Origin: Escherichia phage vB_EcoD-Elw
Reading direction: 5' to 3' (one strand)
Length of the DNA: 64,000 bases
Sequence record: OR621298
Shown here: piece by piece, positions 2,959 to 10,820 of the stretch
Numbering within the stretch: position 1 is the stretch's first letter
Layout of the letters: the number at the start of each line of letters is the position of its first letter
Program-made: the position numbers and the translations under genes
Notes under the pieces: generated by a model
Told to the model about the DNA's origin: nothing
Databases searched by the model: none
What the model saw: the letters and a program-made list of their open reading frames with translations, nothing else

Positions 2959-3231
2959 CTAAGCAACTACATTTTTTAAGAATTTGATGCCTTTCTTTTT
3001 CTTCTTATATTTCCACGTTAATGGATTCTGTCGATTATGAACGCTTGAGATCTTTGTCTCGTCAAAGTTCTTCAATATCATGTAATCACAGGATAATTGT
3101 TCTAGTAGAATGTGATCACCGTCAAAAGCGTATACATAAGGCTGTTGACTAACACGATAATGATAGACTTTGTTAATTCTACGTTTCAGCGACTTATCAG
3201 CGCAGTAAATAAAGAAGTTTTCAGGATGCAT
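2959..3231 (-). CDS. hypothetical protein (about 90 aa)
   Basis: In-frame ATG at 3231 preceded by AAGGAG; the longer ORF would start at TTG 3246. Confidence 0.5.
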   Translation of the reverse strand: MHPENFFIYCADKSLKRRINKVYHYRVSQQPYVYAFDGDHILLEQLSCDYMILKNFDETKISSVHNRQNPLTWKYKKKKKGIKFLKNVVA

Positions 3232-4947: not shown

Positions 4948-4976
4948 ATTATATTAGAAATTTAGCTTCATAGCAA
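4948..4976 (-). promoter_or_regulatory. sigma70-type early promoter (TTGCTA-17-TATAAT)
   Basis: Minus-strand consensus motif directly upstream of the tRNA-Ser/tRNA-CAT pair. Confidence 0.6.
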
Positions 4977-5472
4977 GAAAATTTTTCAAGTTTTCGGTAG
5001 ACATCTCATCCACATCTACGGGAGAAACAAAGCCGTTTAATTTTCTAGCAAATTTTTCACCCGCAGGATCATTATCTCCGACAGCTACCAATTTAAAAGG
5101 TAGTAATTTCAGTTGCTTTAATAACGCTTTTCCTGGAGAAGAACCCAACATTGCTAGGGCTGGATAACCAGCATTATGTAACGCAACTGCCTTAAATACA
5201 GATTCAGCAATCAATACTACTTTTTCATCTCCATTGAGAGTTTCTAGTCCCCATACACACTGGGTAGTAGAATAAGTAAAGTATTTAGCTTCAAAGGGGC
5301 ACTTACCATGACCTTTTGGAGCAGAAGGATTATAAGTTTGATAGCCCCTCAACATCCCAGAGAAGTCATACAACGGGACTGTTAGCCATCCTTCCGGACT
5401 TAACCAGCAATGATATTTATCTGTATCAAATCCTCTAGATAAGAGGTGCTGTGTTAGCTCATCAACATTCAT
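4954..5472 (-). CDS. TOPRIM-domain protein
   Basis: Start placed at the internal ATG 5472 (AAGAGGA RBS) because the longer ORF runs into its own promoter; conserved Glu (VVLIAESVF) and DxD (VAVGDNDPAG) TOPRIM motifs. Confidence 0.6.
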   Translation of the reverse strand: MNVDELTQHLLSRGFDTDKYHCWLSPEGWLTVPLYDFSGMLRGYQTYNPSAPKGHGKCPFEAKYFTYSTTQCVWGLETLNGDEKVVLIAESVFKAVALHNAGYPALAMLGSSPGKALLKQLKLLPFKLVAVGDNDPAGEKFARKLNGFVSPVDVDEMSTENLKNFLAMKLNF

Positions 5473-5502
5473 ATTTGGTTCCTCTTTCAAATTTATAGAT
5501 AT

Positions 5503-5531
5503 ATTATACAGAGAATTTAGCATTCAAGCAA
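5503..5531 (-). promoter_or_regulatory. sigma70-type early promoter (TTGCTT-17-TATAAT)
   Basis: Minus-strand consensus motif; start site about 25 nt upstream of ATG 5472. Confidence 0.6.
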
Positions 5532-5676: not shown

Positions 5677-5737
5677 ATATGTTATGGATGAGTGATCAAA
5701 GAGACACACATTTTCTATATACTAGGAGGTGTCAAAA

Positions 5738-6721
5738 ATGACAGAAGAAGTAGCTAAGAGTCCTGAGACCGTCGCTAGCGTTGCAGCAGAACTGCACCGT
5801 CACGAGGAATCAGATAAGAAAAAGTGGGAGAAGGTCAGAGCCTACGAAGAAAAACATCGTGAACACGATGATGAAGAAGATGATGATGAACATTGTCATA
5901 AATATGGAAAACATAAAATGCAAGAACCAGTAAACGTATTTACTAGTGGCTTCCCTGGCCTACTGGGTGGTTACCCAGCAAACGCAGGTGCTTTCGGTGG
6001 TGAAGGTATGGGACTATTCGGAGCTATCCTAATCGGTGCTCTATTAACAGGCGGATTCGGTGGTTTCGGTGGATTCGGTGGACGTGGTGTAGTTGGTGAT
6101 GGTACCGCAGTTGATGCAGTACTTCAGAACCAAGATACCGCTAGTATTCTAGCAGCTATTAACACTACTCGTACAGAAGCTAACCAGGGTACTGGAGCTG
6201 TTTTAAGCGCAGTTAACAATGGGTTTAGCCAGACATCCCAAAACCAGAGCCGTGATACTCAGTCTGTACTAACTACGATCTATGGTACAGGTGCTAATCT
6301 GTCTAATCAGATCTGTCAGGAAACTCGCAACGTTATTCAGGGTCAGTTCGATCTTTCTCGCCAGATTGATCAATCTTTCGCAGCTAATCAGATAGCTCGT
6401 GCACAAGATAAGTTTGATTCTGCACAGATCGCTTTCCAGCAGACTTTACAAACTAATAACCAGTTTGCCGCTGTTCAGGCTCAGATGTGTGCTAACCAGA
6501 ACTCTCTGGAACGTCAGATCGCTGAATGTTGCTGTGAACTTCAGACTGCGATCGCTGGTGTAACTACTGCGCGTATTCAGGATGAGTTAGATGCATGTCG
6601 CCTACGTGAAGCAATCGCTGCGGGTAACGGTGCTAACGGTCAGGTAATTAATCAAATCGCTGTAAGTCTTGGTGCTATCACTCAGACTCTGGCTGGTCTG
6701 CAGGCTAAACTGCCGGCTTAA
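5738..6721 (+). CDS. glycine-zipper protein with His/acidic N-terminus and Gln/Asn-rich C-terminal half (327 aa), function unknown
   Basis: ATG 5738 with AGGAGG 8 nt upstream (track start 5729 is GTG); hydrophobic GxxxG-repeat segment GLFGAILIGALLTGGFGGFGGFGG; CCC motif; GGT/CGT/CTG-biased codon usage unlike neighbours. Confidence 0.7.
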   Translation: MTEEVAKSPETVASVAAELHRHEESDKKKWEKVRAYEEKHREHDDEEDDDEHCHKYGKHKMQEPVNVFTSGFPGLLGGYPANAGAFGGEGMGLFGAILIGALLTGGFGGFGGFGGRGVVGDGTAVDAVLQNQDTASILAAINTTRTEANQGTGAVLSAVNNGFSQTSQNQSRDTQSVLTTIYGTGANLSNQICQETRNVIQGQFDLSRQIDQSFAANQIARAQDKFDSAQIAFQQTLQTNNQFAAVQAQMCANQNSLERQIAECCCELQTAIAGVTTARIQDELDACRLREAIAAGNGANGQVINQIAVSLGAITQTLAGLQAKLPA

Positions 6722-6742
6722 TATTAAGGGGAGGAGCCCATT

Positions 6743-7159
6743 ATGAGTAAATATGGTTTTGTAAATAACGGACTTAATCAAAGTATGGGCTCCCAGCAGC
6801 CCATTCCGGGTCTGGATAACCCCTACTTACAACAATTGCAACAGCGTTTAGCAGAAGCGCAACAGATGCAGCAACAACTCCAGCAAAACCCTGGAAGTGT
6901 GAGTCCTATGCAAATGATGCAGCAAATGAGCGGGCAGTCGCAAATGCCTCAACAAATGCAGCAACAGGTGCCGCAGCAGCAAGCTCAGCAGCAAACCCAA
7001 CAACCGCAGGTTTCTGCGGAAGGACAGGCAGTACTAGCCCTTTTCGAAGACTTCGCAAAGACAGAGGATGGTAAGCAGCTTGTATCACTTATGGGTAAGT
7101 TTAATAGCTTCTGCCAAAGCCAGGTTGCAAAAGCTCAAAATAGTGGTAATAACTCCTAA
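6743..7159 (+). CDS. Gln-rich low-complexity protein (138 aa), function unknown
   Basis: ATG 6743 with AAGGGGAGGAG RBS; long QQ/MQ runs, ordered C-terminal 50 aa. Confidence 0.7.
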   Translation: MSKYGFVNNGLNQSMGSQQPIPGLDNPYLQQLQQRLAEAQQMQQQLQQNPGSVSPMQMMQQMSGQSQMPQQMQQQVPQQQAQQQTQQPQVSAEGQAVLALFEDFAKTEDGKQLVSLMGKFNSFCQSQVAKAQNSGNNS

Positions 7160-7168
7160 GGAGGAATT

Positions 7169-7363
7169 ATGTGTTGCAGAAAATCTGTTTCGTGCTGCCC
7201 AATGCCTGTAGCACGTTGTTGCTCTCCAGCAATGTTTACGCAAATACCGGCGTTCAATCCGTTTGCCTTTAAGCCTACTCTTATCCTGCCCCCTAGAGTA
7301 GATTTTCAGTCAAGATTGGCCTCCCGTATGGGTGGTTGCTGTAATAAGAGTATATGGTTCTGA
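7169..7363 (+). CDS. Cys-rich small protein (64 aa, four CC dipeptides), function unknown
   Basis: ATG 7169 with AAGGAGG RBS; MCCRKSVSCCPMPVARCCSP...GGCCNKSIWF; followed immediately by an intrinsic terminator. Confidence 0.6.
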   Translation: MCCRKSVSCCPMPVARCCSPAMFTQIPAFNPFAFKPTLILPPRVDFQSRLASRMGGCCNKSIWF

Positions 7364-7379
7364 AGAACCAAACAATAAA

Positions 7380-7413
7380 GCCCCTAGTCGAAAGACTTAG
7401 GGGCTTTTCTTTT
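7380..7413 (+). terminator. rho-independent terminator ending the plus-strand island
   Basis: Stem GCCCCTA/TAGGGGC with 11-nt loop, then TTTTCTTTT. Confidence 0.7.
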
Positions 7414-7420
7414 ATCTTAA

Positions 7421-7458
7421 ATACAGAAAAGCCCTGCGCTCTCCAGGAAACGCAGGGC
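7421..7458 (-). terminator. rho-independent terminator after the SPFH gene
   Basis: Stem GCCCTGCG/CGCAGGGC followed on the minus strand by TTTTCTGTAT. Confidence 0.65.
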
Positions 7459-7483
7459 TTATTTCAGATGTTACATGCGGGTA

Positions 7484-8431
7484 TTACTTATTACGCATAT
7501 CCATAATCATTTGGCCATCATAGCCAGTGCCAACCACAGTCTGCGGTACACCACCTTGGTATTTCTGAGCACGAATCATTTCAACTTCCAGTTGCTTCCA
7601 GCGAATCATCTCAGGAGTAATGGTACGTTGCAACGCGGCGTTAGCTTCAGCTTCTTTCTTAGCTGCGTACAGTTTGGCATCTGCGTCACGCTCATTGGCA
7701 ATAGCTTGGTTATTACGAGCTTCGCGATCTGCTTCTGCTTGTTTAACCTTCTGCTGTGCTTCTTGTTCAACACGAGCCAGTTCAGCTTTCGCAGCATTAA
7801 CTTGCTCTTCACGAACTTTGGTATTCTGTACCTGTTCCATGATTACCGGTGGCAAAGTAATATCCTGAAGGAATACCTGCTTAACTGTATAACCATATGG
7901 GCGTGCATACTCTTCAACTTCCTGTTGAATTGCAGTTTGCAATTGAGCCTGAATTTTAGCATCAAACAAATCTTGTGCTTTAGGTACAGACTTACCAAAC
8001 TCACGAATAGTAGACAGTAATTTTTCAGTTACATATTTGTCTAGCGCTTGATCCTGAGTACCTGCGTTAATACGGTTAATCGGTGCCTTAGAACCATCAA
8101 ACTGCAACATAACAGTCAGGTCAACAGTGGATTTAAACTTATCCTGACTAGGAACCTGAAGTTTATCTAATTTTAGAGCAATATCTTTAGTACTAAAAGT
8201 ATCGAAAGAAGCAAAAGGATTTACAATATGAAAGCCGGGTAGTACTGGGCTAGGGTCAACTTTACCCAGGAAAGTCTGGGTTTTAACAGTACCGTCTTGA
8301 ACAACGGTATAAGAGTTAAAGGCTAGAATCAAGCCTGCTAAACCAACTATAGCACCAATACCCCAACGTTTAATAGTACGAATTACTTTCTGCTCAGAAG
8401 TCAGTTCTTTCATATTTTTAGTATTAAACAT
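7484..8431 (-). CDS. SPFH/band-7 (stomatin/prohibitin/HflC-like) membrane protein
   Basis: 315 aa; N-terminal hydrophobic helix (WGIGAIVGLAGLILAF), central SPFH-like region, C-terminal Ala/Glu/Lys/Gln coiled coil; ATG 8431 with AAGGAAA RBS. Confidence 0.8.
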   Translation of the reverse strand: MFNTKNMKELTSEQKVIRTIKRWGIGAIVGLAGLILAFNSYTVVQDGTVKTQTFLGKVDPSPVLPGFHIVNPFASFDTFSTKDIALKLDKLQVPSQDKFKSTVDLTVMLQFDGSKAPINRINAGTQDQALDKYVTEKLLSTIREFGKSVPKAQDLFDAKIQAQLQTAIQQEVEEYARPYGYTVKQVFLQDITLPPVIMEQVQNTKVREEQVNAAKAELARVEQEAQQKVKQAEADREARNNQAIANERDADAKLYAAKKEAEANAALQRTITPEMIRWKQLEVEMIRAQKYQGGVPQTVVGTGYDGQMIMDMRNK

Positions 8432-8465
8432 ATATTTCCTTTGTTTTAGTTACAGTTAATAAAAT

Positions 8466-8540
8466 TGGCCGAGGTGACAGGATTCGAACCTGCATAAAGG
8501 AATTTAGAAGACTCCTGCCTCTCCATTAGACTACACCCCG
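8466..8540 (-). tRNA. tRNA-Arg (anticodon TCT)
   Basis: Acceptor CGGGGTG/CACCTCG, anticodon arm GGAGT-CTTCTAA-ATTCC, T-arm GCAGG-TTCGAAT-CCTGT, CCA. Confidence 0.75.
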
Positions 8541-9042
8541 TTTAAGTATTTTTAAGAACTCTCGTAAAAACTCTTAAAAATACAGACGATACCGGGAGAG
8601 TCATAAGTCTCACTCATTAAGTATTTCAAGACAAAATACAGTAACGTCTATTATTTTCCAGTTTAAGTCAAGGTGACTTAGTGGTTATGTCCTGCGGTAT
8701 ACTGAGGACTCGGTTAGGATTGGGGTCATGACTTCCCGCCTTTTGCTGCTACTCAACAGGAGTTATCGCGAATTACCTGTGCTATTGTGCACCATTAGTG
8801 ACATCTCTCATGTCAGCATTTCCCACTTTGTGGATAGCTTGAAAAACTACTCCGATATGGAGAAAGAACTTCACTATCCTAGAATACCTTCTAAAGTTCT
8901 TCTTTAGCCTGGACATAGTTAAATCGTAATAAAACTATTCAGCAGACTAGTTGGTTAGTCTGGAACCAACTACCGCGTGGTTTAGGCAGTGCGCAACTAA
9001 CCTCGGAAGCTTTTACGTTAAAAGCATCAGTTATCCAGTTCT

Positions 9043-9114
9043 TACCGACCGTAGGATTCGAACCTACATCTTCCACCAGTTACGGCTTGATAATACCAAT
9101 TATACTAGGACGGC
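9043..9114 (-). pseudogene. degenerate tRNA-like element (no CCA, no anticodon stem)
   Basis: Canonical T-arm GTAGG-TTCGAAT-CCTAC and 6-bp acceptor GCCGTCC/GGTCGGT, but no convincing anticodon arm and no encoded CCA. Confidence 0.35.
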
Positions 9115-9337
9115 AGTGTTACTACATAAGTGATTTCCACACCCCACTATTTATAAATTAGGGAAGAGTTTAGGGGAGAGGTTTCAGACGCCTCATTTTA
9201 TACGTTCTAGCCACTAACCGGGATTGCCGCCCCCTGTGTACTAGTTTTACAACTAACCCACCGACTCTATTCAATGCGCTCCGGTTGGGATTCTGCACTC
9301 AGCGTAATCGGCTCGCTGTTCCCTAATTTATGAATAT

Positions 9338-9366
9338 ATTATACAGAATTTATAAGCATTTAGCAA
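9338..9366 (-). promoter_or_regulatory. sigma70-type early promoter (TTGCTA-17-TATAAT)
   Basis: Minus-strand consensus; would transcribe the 8541-9337 leader, tRNA-Arg and the SPFH gene. Confidence 0.6.
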
Positions 9367-9374
9367 ATGAATTT

Positions 9375-9809
9375 TTAGAAAAATTCACTAGCGATCAAAG
9401 CAGTTGTTTTACCGTCATAACGTCCAGGAAATTCTGCCTTAATAGTTTTCATTAATAGAGCTTTGGTAATACCTGGATTTAATTTAACCAGTTCTGCAAA
9501 ATACTCACGAATCTGAACTTCAGTTAACTGCTCCAGAGCATATTCATGCTCTAGACCTGCTAACAAGTCGAGATATTCAGCATCTGGAGTATATTCGATA
9601 TTTGCTTTTGCAGCAGAAGTCATTGTATTCTCAATTGCTTTGAACTGTGATTTAACCCAGTTAGTAAACTCTAGTCTAGATACGCAATCTTTATCAATTC
9701 GTTGTAAGTCGCCTAAAATCGTACTAAGGTGCTTGACTGACACAGTATCACCGTGTTTGCGAGCTTTTTCAATTAATTCTCGCAGCACACGAATCATATT
9801 CGTACCCAT
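9375..9809 (-). CDS. hypothetical protein (144 aa)
   Basis: ATG at 9809 overlapping the stop of the upstream small ORF (TAATG). Confidence 0.55.
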   Translation of the reverse strand: MGTNMIRVLRELIEKARKHGDTVSVKHLSTILGDLQRIDKDCVSRLEFTNWVKSQFKAIENTMTSAAKANIEYTPDAEYLDLLAGLEHEYALEQLTEVQIREYFAELVKLNPGITKALLMKTIKAEFPGRYDGKTTALIASEFF

Positions 9810-9979
9810 TATTTCATCCCCAATGCTTGGTTAAAAGATTGTTCTGTCATAACTGCTGAGACTTTGGCGAAATCAAACTTTTTAGGGTTCGTAGTGATTT
9901 CAGCAACGTTAGAAGTTTTAACAGTTTTCGTAGTACGAATACCACGAGTGTTAACACCAATAATTACAACTGATTTCAT
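9809..9979 (-). CDS. small hypothetical protein (56 aa)
   Basis: ATG at 9979 with GAGGAAG RBS; translationally coupled to the 144-aa gene. Confidence 0.45.
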   Translation of the reverse strand: MKSVVIIGVNTRGIRTTKTVKTSNVAEITTNPKKFDFAKVSAVMTEQSFNQALGMK

Positions 9980-10047: not shown

Positions 10048-10497
10048 TTAAGTTTTAGTGACAACAGGTTTATAAAACGTATGTCCCTTAATCTTAGTTG
10101 TTTTCTTAAACTTCTTTGTCCAGTAAGGTTTATCTTTACCACTATGGAAGTATAGTGCTCCATGTGTAGGATCTTGTGGTAAATCAACGTAGTATATCAC
10201 TCTAGCTAAATTCTTAGCGGTTTGCCAAGCCTCATCAGTTTTATCAACTTTTGGTCTCTTAGATACCCAAGAGAACTGGTTAGACTGATATACTACTTTA
10301 CAGTAGGAATCTGGGAATTTACCGGAGTTTACACGGTTTTTAGTAACATATGCAATCGCCGTCATTCCCTTTATGCCCTCACCACGACTTTCGAAATAGA
10401 TATTTTTAGCAATGCAATCTATTTCTTTTGCATCGTGCGATGCCTGACTACTAAAGCTGAAGGTAAGGGCAGCTACTAAAAGCAAAGCTGCCTTCAT
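10048..10497 (-). CDS. secreted cell-wall hydrolase (SleB/Hydrolase_2-like)
   Basis: Start placed at ATG 10497 (AGGAG RBS); N-terminal signal peptide MKAALLLVAALTFSFSSQA; cell-wall hydrolase-like core. Confidence 0.7.
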   Translation of the reverse strand: MKAALLLVAALTFSFSSQASHDAKEIDCIAKNIYFESRGEGIKGMTAIAYVTKNRVNSGKFPDSYCKVVYQSNQFSWVSKRPKVDKTDEAWQTAKNLARVIYYVDLPQDPTHGALYFHSGKDKPYWTKKFKKTTKIKGHTFYKPVVTKT

Positions 10498-10502
10498 TCT
10501 TT

Positions 10503-10820
10503 TTACTCCTGCCAATCATATTCAACACGATTGGGATTTTCTTTATACCCTAAGTCAAGCAAATCATTACGCATATTTTGCTTAGCTACTGGGTTCGAGG
10601 TTACTAGTACCACTTTCTTTGGTCTCTGTCCAAATTCTAAGAGTAAACGAAGAATTTGATAACCTTCCATACCATCTACAGCCAAGTCATTATCCATATA
10701 AACGAAATGGCCTGTGGTATCAGTTTTATTCAGAAACTCTACAGCGGCTTCTGGGGTTCGAATGATAATGTCCATTCCGTGAAGATTGCGCACATCATCA
10801 ATCAAAATATGAAAAGTCAT
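10503..10820 (-). CDS. stand-alone receiver (CheY-like REC) domain protein
   Basis: 105 aa; REC-like pattern with acidic pair (HILIDDV), central Asp (YMDNDLAVDG), Thr (VVLVTSNP) and Lys; ATG at 10820; stop lies 6 nt upstream of the hydrolase ATG at 10497. Confidence 0.55.
   Translation of the reverse strand: MTFHILIDDVRNLHGMDIIIRTPEAAVEFLNKTDTTGHFVYMDNDLAVDGMEGYQILRLLLEFGQRPKKVVLVTSNPVAKQNMRNDLLDLGYKENPNRVEYDWQE

What the first reader, a model, noticed from the sequence alone, without database searches (positions are those of the whole stretch)
7484..8431. Phage-encoded SPFH/band-7 membrane protein
The protein has an N-terminal membrane anchor, an SPFH-like core and a long Ala/Glu/Lys/Gln coiled coil. 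Host SPFH proteins (HflK/C) modulate the FtsH protease, so a phage copy could interfere with host membrane proteolysis. It is transcribed with tRNA-Arg from the promoter at 9338-9366.
Basis: partly seen in the sequence, partly recalled or inferred. Interest (0 to 1): 0.4.

Follow-up and report, generated by a model that had tools for sequence, protein, structure and literature searches.

The report
Phage T5-type SPFH membrane protein gene
This is the well-conserved but dispensable T5.080 gene of T5-like phages, which encodes a membrane-anchored SPFH (band-7) scaffold protein; the gene has been annotated for twenty years, and what it does for the phage is still unknown.

Summary
Window 7484-8431 (-) is a real 315-aa gene, the ortholog of T5.080 and BF23 "ORF trn 1.1" (97.5-98% amino-acid identity). 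It has one N-terminal membrane helix, a Pfam Band_7 domain (E 2.5e-17), a 76-residue Ala/Glu/Lys/Gln helix and a conserved C-terminal tail. The AlphaFold model matches only SPFH cage protomers (erlin, prohibitin, stomatin, HflK/C, QmcA), so the refutation test fails.

The promoter at 9366..9338 is identical to T5 promoter P16-17. It drives RNAX (about 800 nt), then tRNA-Arg, then this gene, then a terminator.

The FtsH idea is untested. The positive-inside rule puts the SPFH domain in the periplasm, as in HflK/C. By sequence, however, the family is closest to QmcA, barely matches HflK/HflC, is a single gene, and has no NfeD partner.

The "lipoprotein" label is wrong here, because the protein has no cysteine.

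The family is under strong purifying selection (dN/dS 0.03) and is shared at 64-84% identity between unrelated phage groups. Chromosomal relatives exist in Morganella and Providencia, and none were found in E. coli.

It is dispensable in the laboratory: "Not Fit" in a T5 knock-down screen, deleted in one BF23 genome, and internally deleted in phage NG_S8.

Verdict: already known, function open, modest interest.

The parts
9338..9366 (-). Sigma-70 promoter (TTGCTA, 17-nt spacer, TATAAT), equivalent to T5/BF23 early promoter 'P16-17'. It is the start of the transcription unit.
   Evidence: Best promoter-like site in 7100-9900, with 10 of 12 matches. The sequence is identical to T5 across the annotated promoter. 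The same annotation appears in BF23.
8541..9331 (-). Leader homologous to T5/BF23 'RNAX' (stable RNA of unknown function). It includes a tRNA-like element at 9043-9114.
   Evidence: T5 and BF23 annotations. Alignment to T5 shows a 147-nt insertion at about 9170-9316 and an 87-nt deletion. The Rfam tRNA model scores 35.5 bits at 9043-9114, but ARAGORN does not call it.
8466..8540 (-). tRNA-Arg (anticodon TCT), 34 nt upstream of the start codon
   Evidence: ARAGORN. Rfam tRNA, 52.3 bits.
8437..8441 (-). Ribosome-binding site AAGGA
   Evidence: Read directly from the sequence. An RBS is annotated at the same place in BF23.
8366..8431 (-). Codons 1-22: basic N-terminal tail (6 K/R, 2 D/E), predicted to be cytoplasmic
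   Evidence: Charge count. 25 of 30 family members have more K/R before the TM than after it.
8306..8365 (-). Codons 23-42: single transmembrane signal-anchor with no lipobox
   Evidence: Hydropathy peak of 1.79 and zero cysteines in the protein. Helix 12-38 in the model.
7856..8305 (-). Codons 43-192: SPFH (band-7) alpha/beta core, with the invariant VPSQDK motif
   Evidence: Pfam PF01145, E 2.5e-17. Model secondary structure. Foldseek matches to SPFH proteins. Invariant columns in the family alignment.
7562..7855 (-). Codons 193-290: long Ala/Glu/Lys/Gln helix (195-270) plus a second helix (273-290). These correspond to the wall and cap helices of SPFH cages.
   Evidence: Alignment to the coiled-coil regions of QmcA, prohibitin and HflC.
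7487..7561 (-). Codons 291-315: conserved C-terminal tail (GGVPQTVVG..Y.G.MIMD.R). It has low confidence in the monomer model and is a candidate inter-subunit cap strand.
   Evidence: pLDDT below 50 for residues 292-315, yet the segment is conserved across the family. It is the only part retained, fused to codons 1-17, in the NG_S8 deletion.
7429..7460 (-). Intrinsic terminator hairpin (13 bp, then a T-rich tail) 24 nt after the stop codon. It also carries the T5 nick consensus Pu-GCGC.
   Evidence: Terminator scan. T5 annotations of a terminator and of the major 32.6% single-strand interruption.
7371..7413 (.). Bidirectional rho-independent terminator shared with the convergent genes 5729-7363 (+)
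   Evidence: T5 and BF23 annotations mapped by synteny. The hairpin is visible in the sequence.

Best explanation
The ORF is the T5.080 ortholog. It is an accessory early gene of T5-like phages that encodes a type-II (N-in/C-out) anchored SPFH protein. It is made from a polycistronic RNA (P16-17 promoter, RNAX, tRNA-Arg, CDS, terminator) that must be processed at the tRNA.

Shown here:
- It is a real gene under strong purifying selection.
- It has the SPFH fold and every module of a cage-forming SPFH protomer: membrane anchor, SPFH core, long wall helix, second helix and a conserved C-terminal tail.
- It moves as a single-gene cassette between unrelated virulent phages of Enterobacterales, Aeromonas and Vibrio.
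- It is dispensable on laboratory E. coli.

Inferred:
- Like all structurally solved full-length SPFH proteins, it self-assembles into a homo-oligomeric ring or dome. Here the dome would sit on the periplasmic face of the inner membrane.
- It would fence off a membrane patch and so change the access or activity of one or more inner-membrane client proteins during infection.
- The benefit would be conditional, depending on host or environment, rather than a core replication function.

The client is unknown. FtsH is one candidate among several.
For: Identity and synteny with T5.080 and BF23 ORF trn 1.1. Pfam Band_7. AF2 model with pLDDT 79. Foldseek hits only on SPFH cage protomers, aligned over nearly the full length at 258-311 columns, and on many viral SPFH proteins.

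Topology: 6 K/R before the TM against 2 in the 15 residues after it, and the same bias in 25 of 30 relatives.

The C-terminal 25 residues are conserved but disordered in the monomer, as expected for an oligomer-dependent cap.

dN/dS is 0.033. The family is present in 722 phage records. Identity is 80-84% between T5-like siphoviruses and Slopekvirus/Karamvirus myoviruses over residues 39-313. In a neighbour-joining tree, versions from at least 5 phage genome types form one clade, sister to the chromosomal Morganella/Providencia genes.

No neighbour is shared across all lineages; one SleB-like hydrolase is shared by two.

Dispensability: T5.080 is 'Not Fit' with 7 guides in the CRISPRi-ART screen (PMC11879866, supplementary file 16). 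A ~4.4 kb deletion including the gene exists in BF23 genome OR083247.1. Phage NG_S8 has an in-frame internal deletion.

Transcription unit.
Against: Oligomerisation, membrane location and orientation are all predictions; nothing here measures them. The closest host paralog by sequence, QmcA, faces the cytoplasm, so an error in the topology prediction would change the picture. Five of 30 relatives do not show the charge bias. No client, partner gene or phenotype is known. The literature search found only annotations and speculation. Co-transcription from P16-17 rests on sequence and on the depositors' annotation, not on RNA data seen here.
Confidence: 0.55

Rival explanations
1. One reading: the protein is an HflK/C-like modulator or decoy. 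It would bind the periplasmic domain of host FtsH, or intercalate into the HflK/C ring, and so alter degradation of membrane or regulatory proteins during infection.
For: The predicted periplasmic orientation is the same as for HflK/C. The fold and cage modules are the same as in HflK/C (7vhq, 7wi3, 9cz2, 9paw, at E 1e-12 to 1e-8). Pairing of SPFH proteins with membrane proteases recurs across HflKC-FtsH and prohibitin-m-AAA (established knowledge; PMC12048511).
Against: No NCBIfam HflK or HflC model is matched. hhalign against E. coli HflK gives 10% probability, and against HflC only 31 columns at 70%. QmcA is the best match. It is a single gene, whereas HflK/C is an obligate hetero-pair encoded by adjacent genes. 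The reported FtsH contact (HflK Arg191, as cited) cannot be mapped at this divergence. Homologous genes sit in the Morganella and Providencia chromosomes among ordinary metabolic, transport and regulator genes and away from any second SPFH gene, which suggests their own role. I know of no FtsH-labile T5 regulator. There is no fitness effect on K-12.
Confidence: 0.15
2. The protein is a protective device of the infected cell at the periplasmic face of the inner membrane. It would act in superinfection exclusion or blocking of incoming phage DNA, or as a shield against membrane-acting defence or abortive-infection effectors, or in control of lysis timing.
For: It is expressed from an early-type promoter and is predicted to be periplasmic. 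It is accessory but strongly conserved. It is exchanged among virulent phages that compete for the same hosts. It shows no phenotype in single-phage laboratory infection, as expected for a function that depends on competition or defence. The only neighbour shared across lineages is a secreted SleB-like cell-wall hydrolase.
Against: There is no direct evidence. It matches no model in PADLOC, a library of defence-system proteins. T5 already has Llp for receptor blocking (established knowledge). The chromosomal, non-prophage homologs in Morganellaceae argue for a more general membrane role.
Confidence: 0.15
3. The protein is a cytoplasm-facing, QmcA/stomatin-like scaffold. In this case the topology prediction is wrong, and it organises inner-membrane microdomains from the inside.
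For: QmcA is the closest solved and closest host relative by sequence.
Against: QmcA has no basic tail before its TM, whereas this protein has 6 K/R there. There is no NfeD-type partner gene next to it, unlike qmcA-ybbJ and yqiJ-yqiK. The charge bias is conserved across the family.
Confidence: 0.1
4. The protein is a lipoprotein, as many GenBank records and PHROG_200 label it.
For: PHROG_200 is named 'lipoprotein'. One relative (Morganella phage Mm5, P0115) has a Cys in a lipobox-like AIGSC context.
Against: The window protein has no cysteine at all, so it cannot be lipid-modified at a lipobox. 24 of the 28 full-length aligned members, and both chromosomal homologs over their first ~70 residues, also lack Cys.
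Confidence: 0.01

Closest known systems
T5.080 (AAS77126.1 / AAX12012.1, 'putative transmembrane protein, IPR001107 band 7') and BF23 ORF trn 1.1 (CAE53207.1)
   Same: Orthologs: 97.5% (T5) and 98% (BF23) amino-acid identity, the same 315-aa length, and the same order of promoter P16-17, RNAX, tRNA-Arg, CDS, then bidirectional terminator and nick.
   Different: Only a few conservative substitutions in the protein, plus indels in the upstream RNAX leader.
E. coli QmcA (stomatin-like SPFH; cage with the NfeD protein YbbJ, PDB 8z5g)
   Same: [quoted passage not shown] It has the same module order and similar length (305 vs 315 aa).
   Different: About 20-25% identity. QmcA is cytoplasm-facing with no basic N-tail, whereas the phage protein is predicted to be periplasm-facing. 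QmcA is co-encoded with NfeD YbbJ, and the phage gene has no such neighbour.
E. coli HflK/HflC (FtsH-modulating periplasmic SPFH cage)
   Same: The fold and cage modules match. The predicted N-in/C-out periplasmic orientation matches.
   Different: Sequence similarity is negligible. HflK/C is a hetero-oligomer of two adjacent genes, while this is a lone gene. The FtsH interaction is untested.
Eukaryotic prohibitins and erlins (type-II anchored SPFH cages)
   Same: They are the top structural matches (erlin1/2 at E 3e-15, PHB1/2 at E 1e-13). They share a short N-terminal anchor, similar length, and a bulk domain on the non-cytosolic or intermembrane side (established knowledge).
   Different: 15-19% identity. 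They form hetero-oligomers of two paralogs in eukaryotic organelles.
Chromosomal stand-alone SPFH genes of Morganella and Providencia (and Aeromonas, 51%)
   Same: 57-60% identity over the full length, the same architecture and the same basic N-tail. They are single genes without an NfeD or SPFH neighbour.
   Different: They are cellular genes set among ordinary metabolic, transport and regulator genes, not in prophages. Their function is also unknown.

Membership tests
SPFH / Band 7 superfamily (Pfam PF01145) | Sequence match to the Band_7 profile above the curated threshold | tested here: met
   63.9 bits against a cut-off of 23.6, E 2.5e-17, residues 52-225.
SPFH / Band 7 superfamily (Pfam PF01145) | SPFH alpha/beta fold followed by a long helix | tested here: met
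   AF2 model with pLDDT 79. All significant PDB matches are SPFH proteins, at probability 1.0 and E down to 3e-15.
SPFH / Band 7 superfamily (Pfam PF01145) | Membrane attachment at the N-terminus | tested here: met
   One hydrophobic helix at residues ~23-42. This is a prediction only.
SPFH / Band 7 superfamily (Pfam PF01145) | Assembly into large rings or cages | not testable with these tools
   Only monomer prediction is available. The conserved but disordered C-tail is compatible with an oligomer cap.
HflK/HflC FtsH modulators | Sequence membership (NCBIfam HflK or HflC models; similarity to E. coli HflK/HflC) | tested here: not met
   No NCBIfam hit at E <= 0.1. hhalign gives HflK 10% probability and HflC 70% over 31 columns.
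HflK/HflC FtsH modulators | Two adjacent paralogous genes forming a hetero-oligomer | tested here: not met
   It is a single SPFH gene flanked by a tRNA and a terminator. Compare hflK-hflC.
HflK/HflC FtsH modulators | SPFH domain in the periplasm | tested here: inconclusive
   The positive-inside rule predicts N-in/C-out here and in 25 of 30 relatives. There is no experimental topology.
HflK/HflC FtsH modulators | Physical and functional interaction with FtsH | not testable with these tools
   This needs pull-down experiments or multimer modelling.
Stomatin/QmcA-NfeD pairs | Adjacent NfeD-family partner gene | tested here: not met
   No ORF lies between the tRNA-Arg and the terminator other than the SPFH gene. 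There is no conserved neighbour in other phages or in Morganellaceae. Compare ybbJ-qmcA and yqiJ-yqiK.
Stomatin/QmcA-NfeD pairs | Cytoplasm-facing SPFH domain | tested here: not met
   The predicted orientation is opposite to that of QmcA. This is a prediction only.
Bacterial lipoproteins (the label carried by PHROG_200 and many GenBank records) | Lipobox with an invariant Cys after the signal peptide | tested here: not met
   The protein has zero cysteines.
T5.080 orthologous group / PHROG_200 | High full-length identity and conserved position downstream of tRNA-Arg in Markadamsvirinae | tested here: met
   PHROG_200 at E 1e-85. 97.5-98% identity to T5 and BF23 with the same synteny. 436 records hold the CDS and 438 hold the adjacent tRNA-Arg/RNAX.
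Known anti-phage defence proteins (PADLOC) | Match to a PADLOC model | tested here: not met
   No hit at E <= 0.1.

The most novel reading that the evidence does not exclude
A periplasm-facing, homo-oligomeric SPFH cage is a mobile 'membrane-fencing' module that unrelated virulent phages (T5-like, T4-like, and phage genomes of about 90 kb and 150 kb) trade among themselves. It would corral a specific host inner-membrane machine, such as FtsH, a DNA-entry channel or a membrane-bound defence effector. The benefit would show only in competition or on defended hosts. This would be the first assigned function for a viral SPFH protein.
Probability: 0.2. Interest if true: 0.6.

Novelty: already known. 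Interest (0 to 1): 0.27.

Why it matters
SPFH proteins occur in phages and giant viruses, yet I found no assigned function for any viral member. This family is a good entry point for four reasons. It sits in the model phage T5. It is strongly conserved and horizontally shared, which argues for a real selective benefit. It is non-essential, so it is easy to delete. Its predicted periplasmic orientation, combined with a QmcA-like sequence, gives a concrete hypothesis that is cheap to test. For the scan itself the result is mostly corrective: the gene is ordinary and long annotated, the 'lipoprotein' label is wrong, and the FtsH story is only one of several untested options.

Tried and rejected
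- Lipoprotein reading (PHROG_200 and GenBank label): rejected, because the protein has no Cys.
- Defence or anti-defence assignment: no PADLOC match, and nothing in the literature.
- NCBIfam naming: no model matched.
- Conserved partner gene (NfeD or other): none found next to the gene here, in Slopekvirus Miro, Proteus phage YP1, Aeromonas phage avDM2, Morganella or Providencia. The only hit across lineages is a SleB-like hydrolase at 32% identity.
- Recent capture from the E. coli host: no DNA match in 5,426 complete E. coli genomes.
- A published remark that BF23 lacks the gene (PMC12752171): resolved. BF23 record AJ604530.1 has it at 98% identity. The complete BF23 genome OR083247.1 carries a ~4.4 kb deletion that removes it.
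- The 147-nt insertion in the RNAX leader as a structured RNA: no signal (z = +0.6), and no Rfam family.
- Literature searches for T5.080, phage SPFH with FtsH or superinfection, T5 transcriptomics, and the SNIPE paper: no functional data, apart from the CRISPRi-ART fitness call.
- Mapping the HflK Arg191-FtsH contact onto the phage protein: not attempted beyond hhalign, because there is no alignable similarity to HflK.

Full report
**What the window is**

The region 7000-9900 is 97% identical in DNA to Salmonella phage SCF and about 92% identical to coliphage T5. It matches 461 T5-like records (Demerecviridae, Markadamsvirinae). The window begins with the characteristic T5 tRNA cluster of 13 tRNAs.

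**Check of the observation**

An ORF runs exactly from 8431 (ATG) to 7484 (end of the stop codon) on the minus strand and encodes 315 aa. An AAGGA ribosome-binding site lies at 8437-8441.

- The protein matches Pfam Band_7/SPFH at E 2.5e-17, well above the curated cut-off. It matches PHROG_200 at E 1e-85.
- It has one hydrophobic segment at residues ~23-42, preceded by a basic tail with 6 K/R.
- Residues 205-270 are dominated by Ala, Glu, Lys and Gln.
- It has no cysteine at all.

An AlphaFold2 model was built on a 28-sequence family alignment. Its mean pLDDT is 79. It shows a TM helix (12-38), an alpha/beta core (41-192), one 76-residue helix (195-270), a second helix (273-290), and a low-confidence but highly conserved C-terminal tail.

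Foldseek against the PDB returns only SPFH proteins: erlin1/2, prohibitin1/2, stomatin, HflK/C, QmcA, flotillin and major vault protein. All have probability 1.0, E-values run from 3e-15 to about 1e-6, and many alignments span nearly the full length. The physical description is confirmed.

**Identity**

The gene is the ortholog of T5.080. One T5 record calls it 'conserved hypothetical protein, single transmembrane domain'. The other calls it 'putative transmembrane protein, IPR001107 band 7'. It is also the ortholog of BF23 'ORF trn 1.1'. Amino-acid identity is 97.5% to T5 and 98% to BF23.

SPFH genes in T4-like phages (44RR, Aeh1, RB43) were reported in 2006 (PMC1524935). Later phage-genome papers mention such genes only as annotations or speculation. 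The finding is therefore already known as an annotation. I found no paper that assigns a function.

**Transcription unit**

The site TTGCTA-17-TATAAT at 9366..9338 (-) is the strongest promoter-like match in the region. It lies in a stretch of ~95 nt identical to the T5 promoter annotated 'P16-17', which is annotated in BF23 as well.

The homolog of 'RNAX' sits there, roughly at window 8541-9331. RNAX is a stable RNA of unknown function of ~720-785 nt in T5 and BF23. It contains a tRNA-like element at 9043-9114, which scores 35.5 bits on the Rfam tRNA model and is not called by ARAGORN.

The tRNA-Arg ends 34 nt before the start codon. No other minus-strand promoter-like site or terminator lies in between. 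A strong hairpin terminator (7460-7429) follows the stop codon, and the annotated bidirectional terminator comes after it.

Co-transcription with tRNA-Arg is thus the arrangement the sequence dictates. It is inferred from sequence and from the depositors' annotation, not from RNA data.

**Which SPFH is it?**

Against all PDB sequences the best relative is E. coli QmcA (E 2e-6; profile E 1.7e-7). Prohibitins and erlins follow. HflC appears only weakly, in the coiled-coil region.

I fetched the four E. coli K-12 SPFH genes and compared each with the family profile:

| E. coli protein | hhalign probability | Aligned columns |
|---|---|---|
| QmcA | 96.5% | 203 |
| HflC | 70% | 31 |
| HflK | 10% | 50 |
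| YqiK | 6% | 16 |

No NCBIfam model (including the HflK and HflC models) and no PADLOC model is matched.

An exhaustive phmmer search of 1.84 billion cluster representatives finds only 941 proteins at E <= 1e-3 and 34 at E <= 1e-30. This is a small, distinct SPFH subfamily.

Its orientation is predicted to be opposite to that of QmcA:
- QmcA starts directly with its hydrophobic helix and faces the cytoplasm.
- HflK and HflC face the periplasm (PMC10434171).
- The phage protein has a 22-residue basic tail before its TM, with net zero charge after it. The same bias holds in 25 of 30 relatives.

In short, the protein is QmcA/stomatin-like in sequence and HflK/C- or prohibitin-like in predicted topology. 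It is a lone gene with no NfeD partner and no second SPFH paralog.

**Distribution and evolution**

By tblastn, 722 of ~50,700 phage records carry a homolog:
- T5-like phages, at 90% identity or more.
- T4-like Slopekvirus/Karamvirus phages of Klebsiella, Enterobacter and Cronobacter, at 80-84% over residues 39-313.
- An 89-kb Proteus phage, at 75%.
- T4-like Aeromonas phages, at about 64%.
- More distant Vibrio and Aeromonas phages.

Contigs of about 90 kb and about 152 kb also carry it.

In a neighbour-joining tree the enterobacterial phage versions from these unrelated genome types form one tight clade. This points to exchange between phages.

The sister clade is chromosomal. Morganella and Providencia species carry a 57-60% identical stand-alone gene set among ordinary metabolic, transport and regulator genes, not in prophages. 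Aeromonas and Bacterioplanoides chromosomes hold relatives at about 50% identity. No DNA-level relative exists in 5,426 complete E. coli genomes.

Within T5-like phages the gene is nearly universal: 436 records hold the CDS and 438 hold the adjacent tRNA-Arg/RNAX. It is under strong purifying selection, with dN/dS 0.033 against T5 at dS 0.42.

No neighbour is shared across all lineages. A SleB-like cell-wall hydrolase occurs near the gene both here and in the Proteus phage.

**Dispensability**

Three independent lines show the gene is not needed for growth on laboratory hosts.
1. In the transcriptome-wide CRISPRi-ART knock-down screen of T5, T5.080 is 'Not Fit' (7 guides, P 0.85) (PMC11879866, supplementary file 16).
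2. The complete BF23 genome OR083247.1 lacks a ~4.4 kb block from hegA to P16-17 that includes this gene. The older BF23 tRNA-region record has it. This also explains a published statement that BF23 lacks a band-7 gene.
3. The Epseptimavirus NG_S8 carries an in-frame internal deletion that fuses codons ~1-17 to ~277-315.

**Mechanism**

Shown here:
- The SPFH fold.
- All the modules that build the rings and cages seen in full-length SPFH structures: anchor, SPFH core, wall helix, cap helix, and a C-terminal strand that is conserved yet disordered in the monomer.
- An early-type sigma-70 promoter.
- Accessory status together with strong conservation.

Inferred:
- Homo-oligomeric dome formation on the periplasmic face of the inner membrane.
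- Enclosure of a membrane patch or a client protein.
- A conditional benefit to the phage.

I rate this general model at about 0.55.

It has no positive evidence. It is weakened by the lack of similarity to HflK/C, the single-gene architecture, the separate chromosomal homologs in Morganellaceae and the absence of a laboratory phenotype. I rate it at about 0.15.

The remaining options and my ratings:
- Superinfection exclusion, shielding against membrane-acting defence, or lysis-timing control: about 0.15.
- A cytoplasm-facing QmcA-like scaffold: about 0.10.
- The 'lipoprotein' label: excluded by the absence of cysteine.

**Verdict**

The functional interpretation is untested. The feature is a long-annotated, ordinary accessory gene of T5-like phages. 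Interest is modest and lies in the open, tractable question of why unrelated virulent phages keep and trade a near-identical SPFH protein.

Noticed in passing
window 8541-9331 (-): This is the homolog of T5/BF23 'RNAX', an abundant stable RNA of unknown function. It lies between promoter P16-17 and tRNA-Arg and contains a tRNA-like element at 9043-9114. That element scores 35.5 bits on the Rfam tRNA model (above the gathering score), is not called by ARAGORN, and is annotated as a pseudo-tRNA or 'tRNA-OTHER' in relatives. No other Rfam family matches.
   Followed up: partly
window ~9170-9316 and ~8650: Relative to T5, the RNAX leader has a 147-nt insertion directly downstream of the promoter. 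The insertion covers at least 80% of the query in 128 T5-like records (183 records match in all), BF23 among them. Its folding z-score is +0.6, so there is no structure signal. The leader also lacks an 87-nt copy of a direct repeat (GTCACCTTGAC-TAAACTGGAA).
   Followed up: partly
window 7429-7460: The terminator hairpin after the SPFH gene contains the T5 nick consensus (Pu-GCGC). It corresponds to the annotated 'major single-chain interruption, 32.6%' of T5 DNA. Terminator and nick site therefore coincide.
   Followed up: no
L022 (BF23 OR083247.1) versus L021 (BF23 AJ604530.1); L003 (NG_S8) 2962-3129: One BF23 genome lacks a ~4.4 kb block holding tRNA-Ile2, tRNA-Ser3, T5.076-079, the SPFH gene, tRNA-Arg and most of RNAX. 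NG_S8 has an in-frame internal deletion that leaves a 55-aa remnant. The block is therefore deletable, and a published statement that BF23 lacks the band-7 gene reflects a deletion stock.
   Followed up: yes
window 10048-10515 (-) and L019 4094-4516: A secreted SleB-like cell-wall hydrolase (T5.083 homolog, with a signal peptide) lies 1.6 kb upstream of the SPFH gene here. It has a 32% identical homolog 0.7 kb downstream of the SPFH gene in Proteus phage YP1. This is the only neighbour shared across lineages and may be coincidence.
   Followed up: no
window 5729-7363 (+): Three convergent genes (T5.077-079 homologs) encode odd low-complexity proteins: a 330-aa Gly/Gln-rich protein with a CCC motif, a 138-aa poly-Gln-rich protein, and a 64-aa Cys-rich peptide. 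GenBank labels for these and neighbouring genes ('cAMP-dependent protein kinase catalytic subunit', 'tRNA amidotransferase', 'recombination-related exonuclease') are inconsistent between records and look unreliable.
   Followed up: no
window 4954-5523 (-): This is the homolog of T5.076, a small protein related to Toprim, OLD and primase. The CRISPRi-ART T5 table lists it as 'anti-defense, Known, Semi-Fit'.
   Followed up: no
L005 (NZ_JBHSCL010000010.1) and proteins P0026, P0053, P0061: Contigs of 174-178 kb that carry this gene and have the size of T4-like phage genomes are deposited as 'Flagellimonas marina', 'Enterobacter asburiae' or 'Klebsiella pneumoniae plasmid'. They are probably phage genomes mislabelled as cellular or plasmid DNA.
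   Followed up: no
window 7475-8020 (+) and other antisense ORFs: Long antisense ORFs overlap the SPFH gene (for example one of 181 aa). They are conserved only as a by-product of the sense frame; BLAST hits between phages fall on the same antisense frames. They are not genes.
   Followed up: partly
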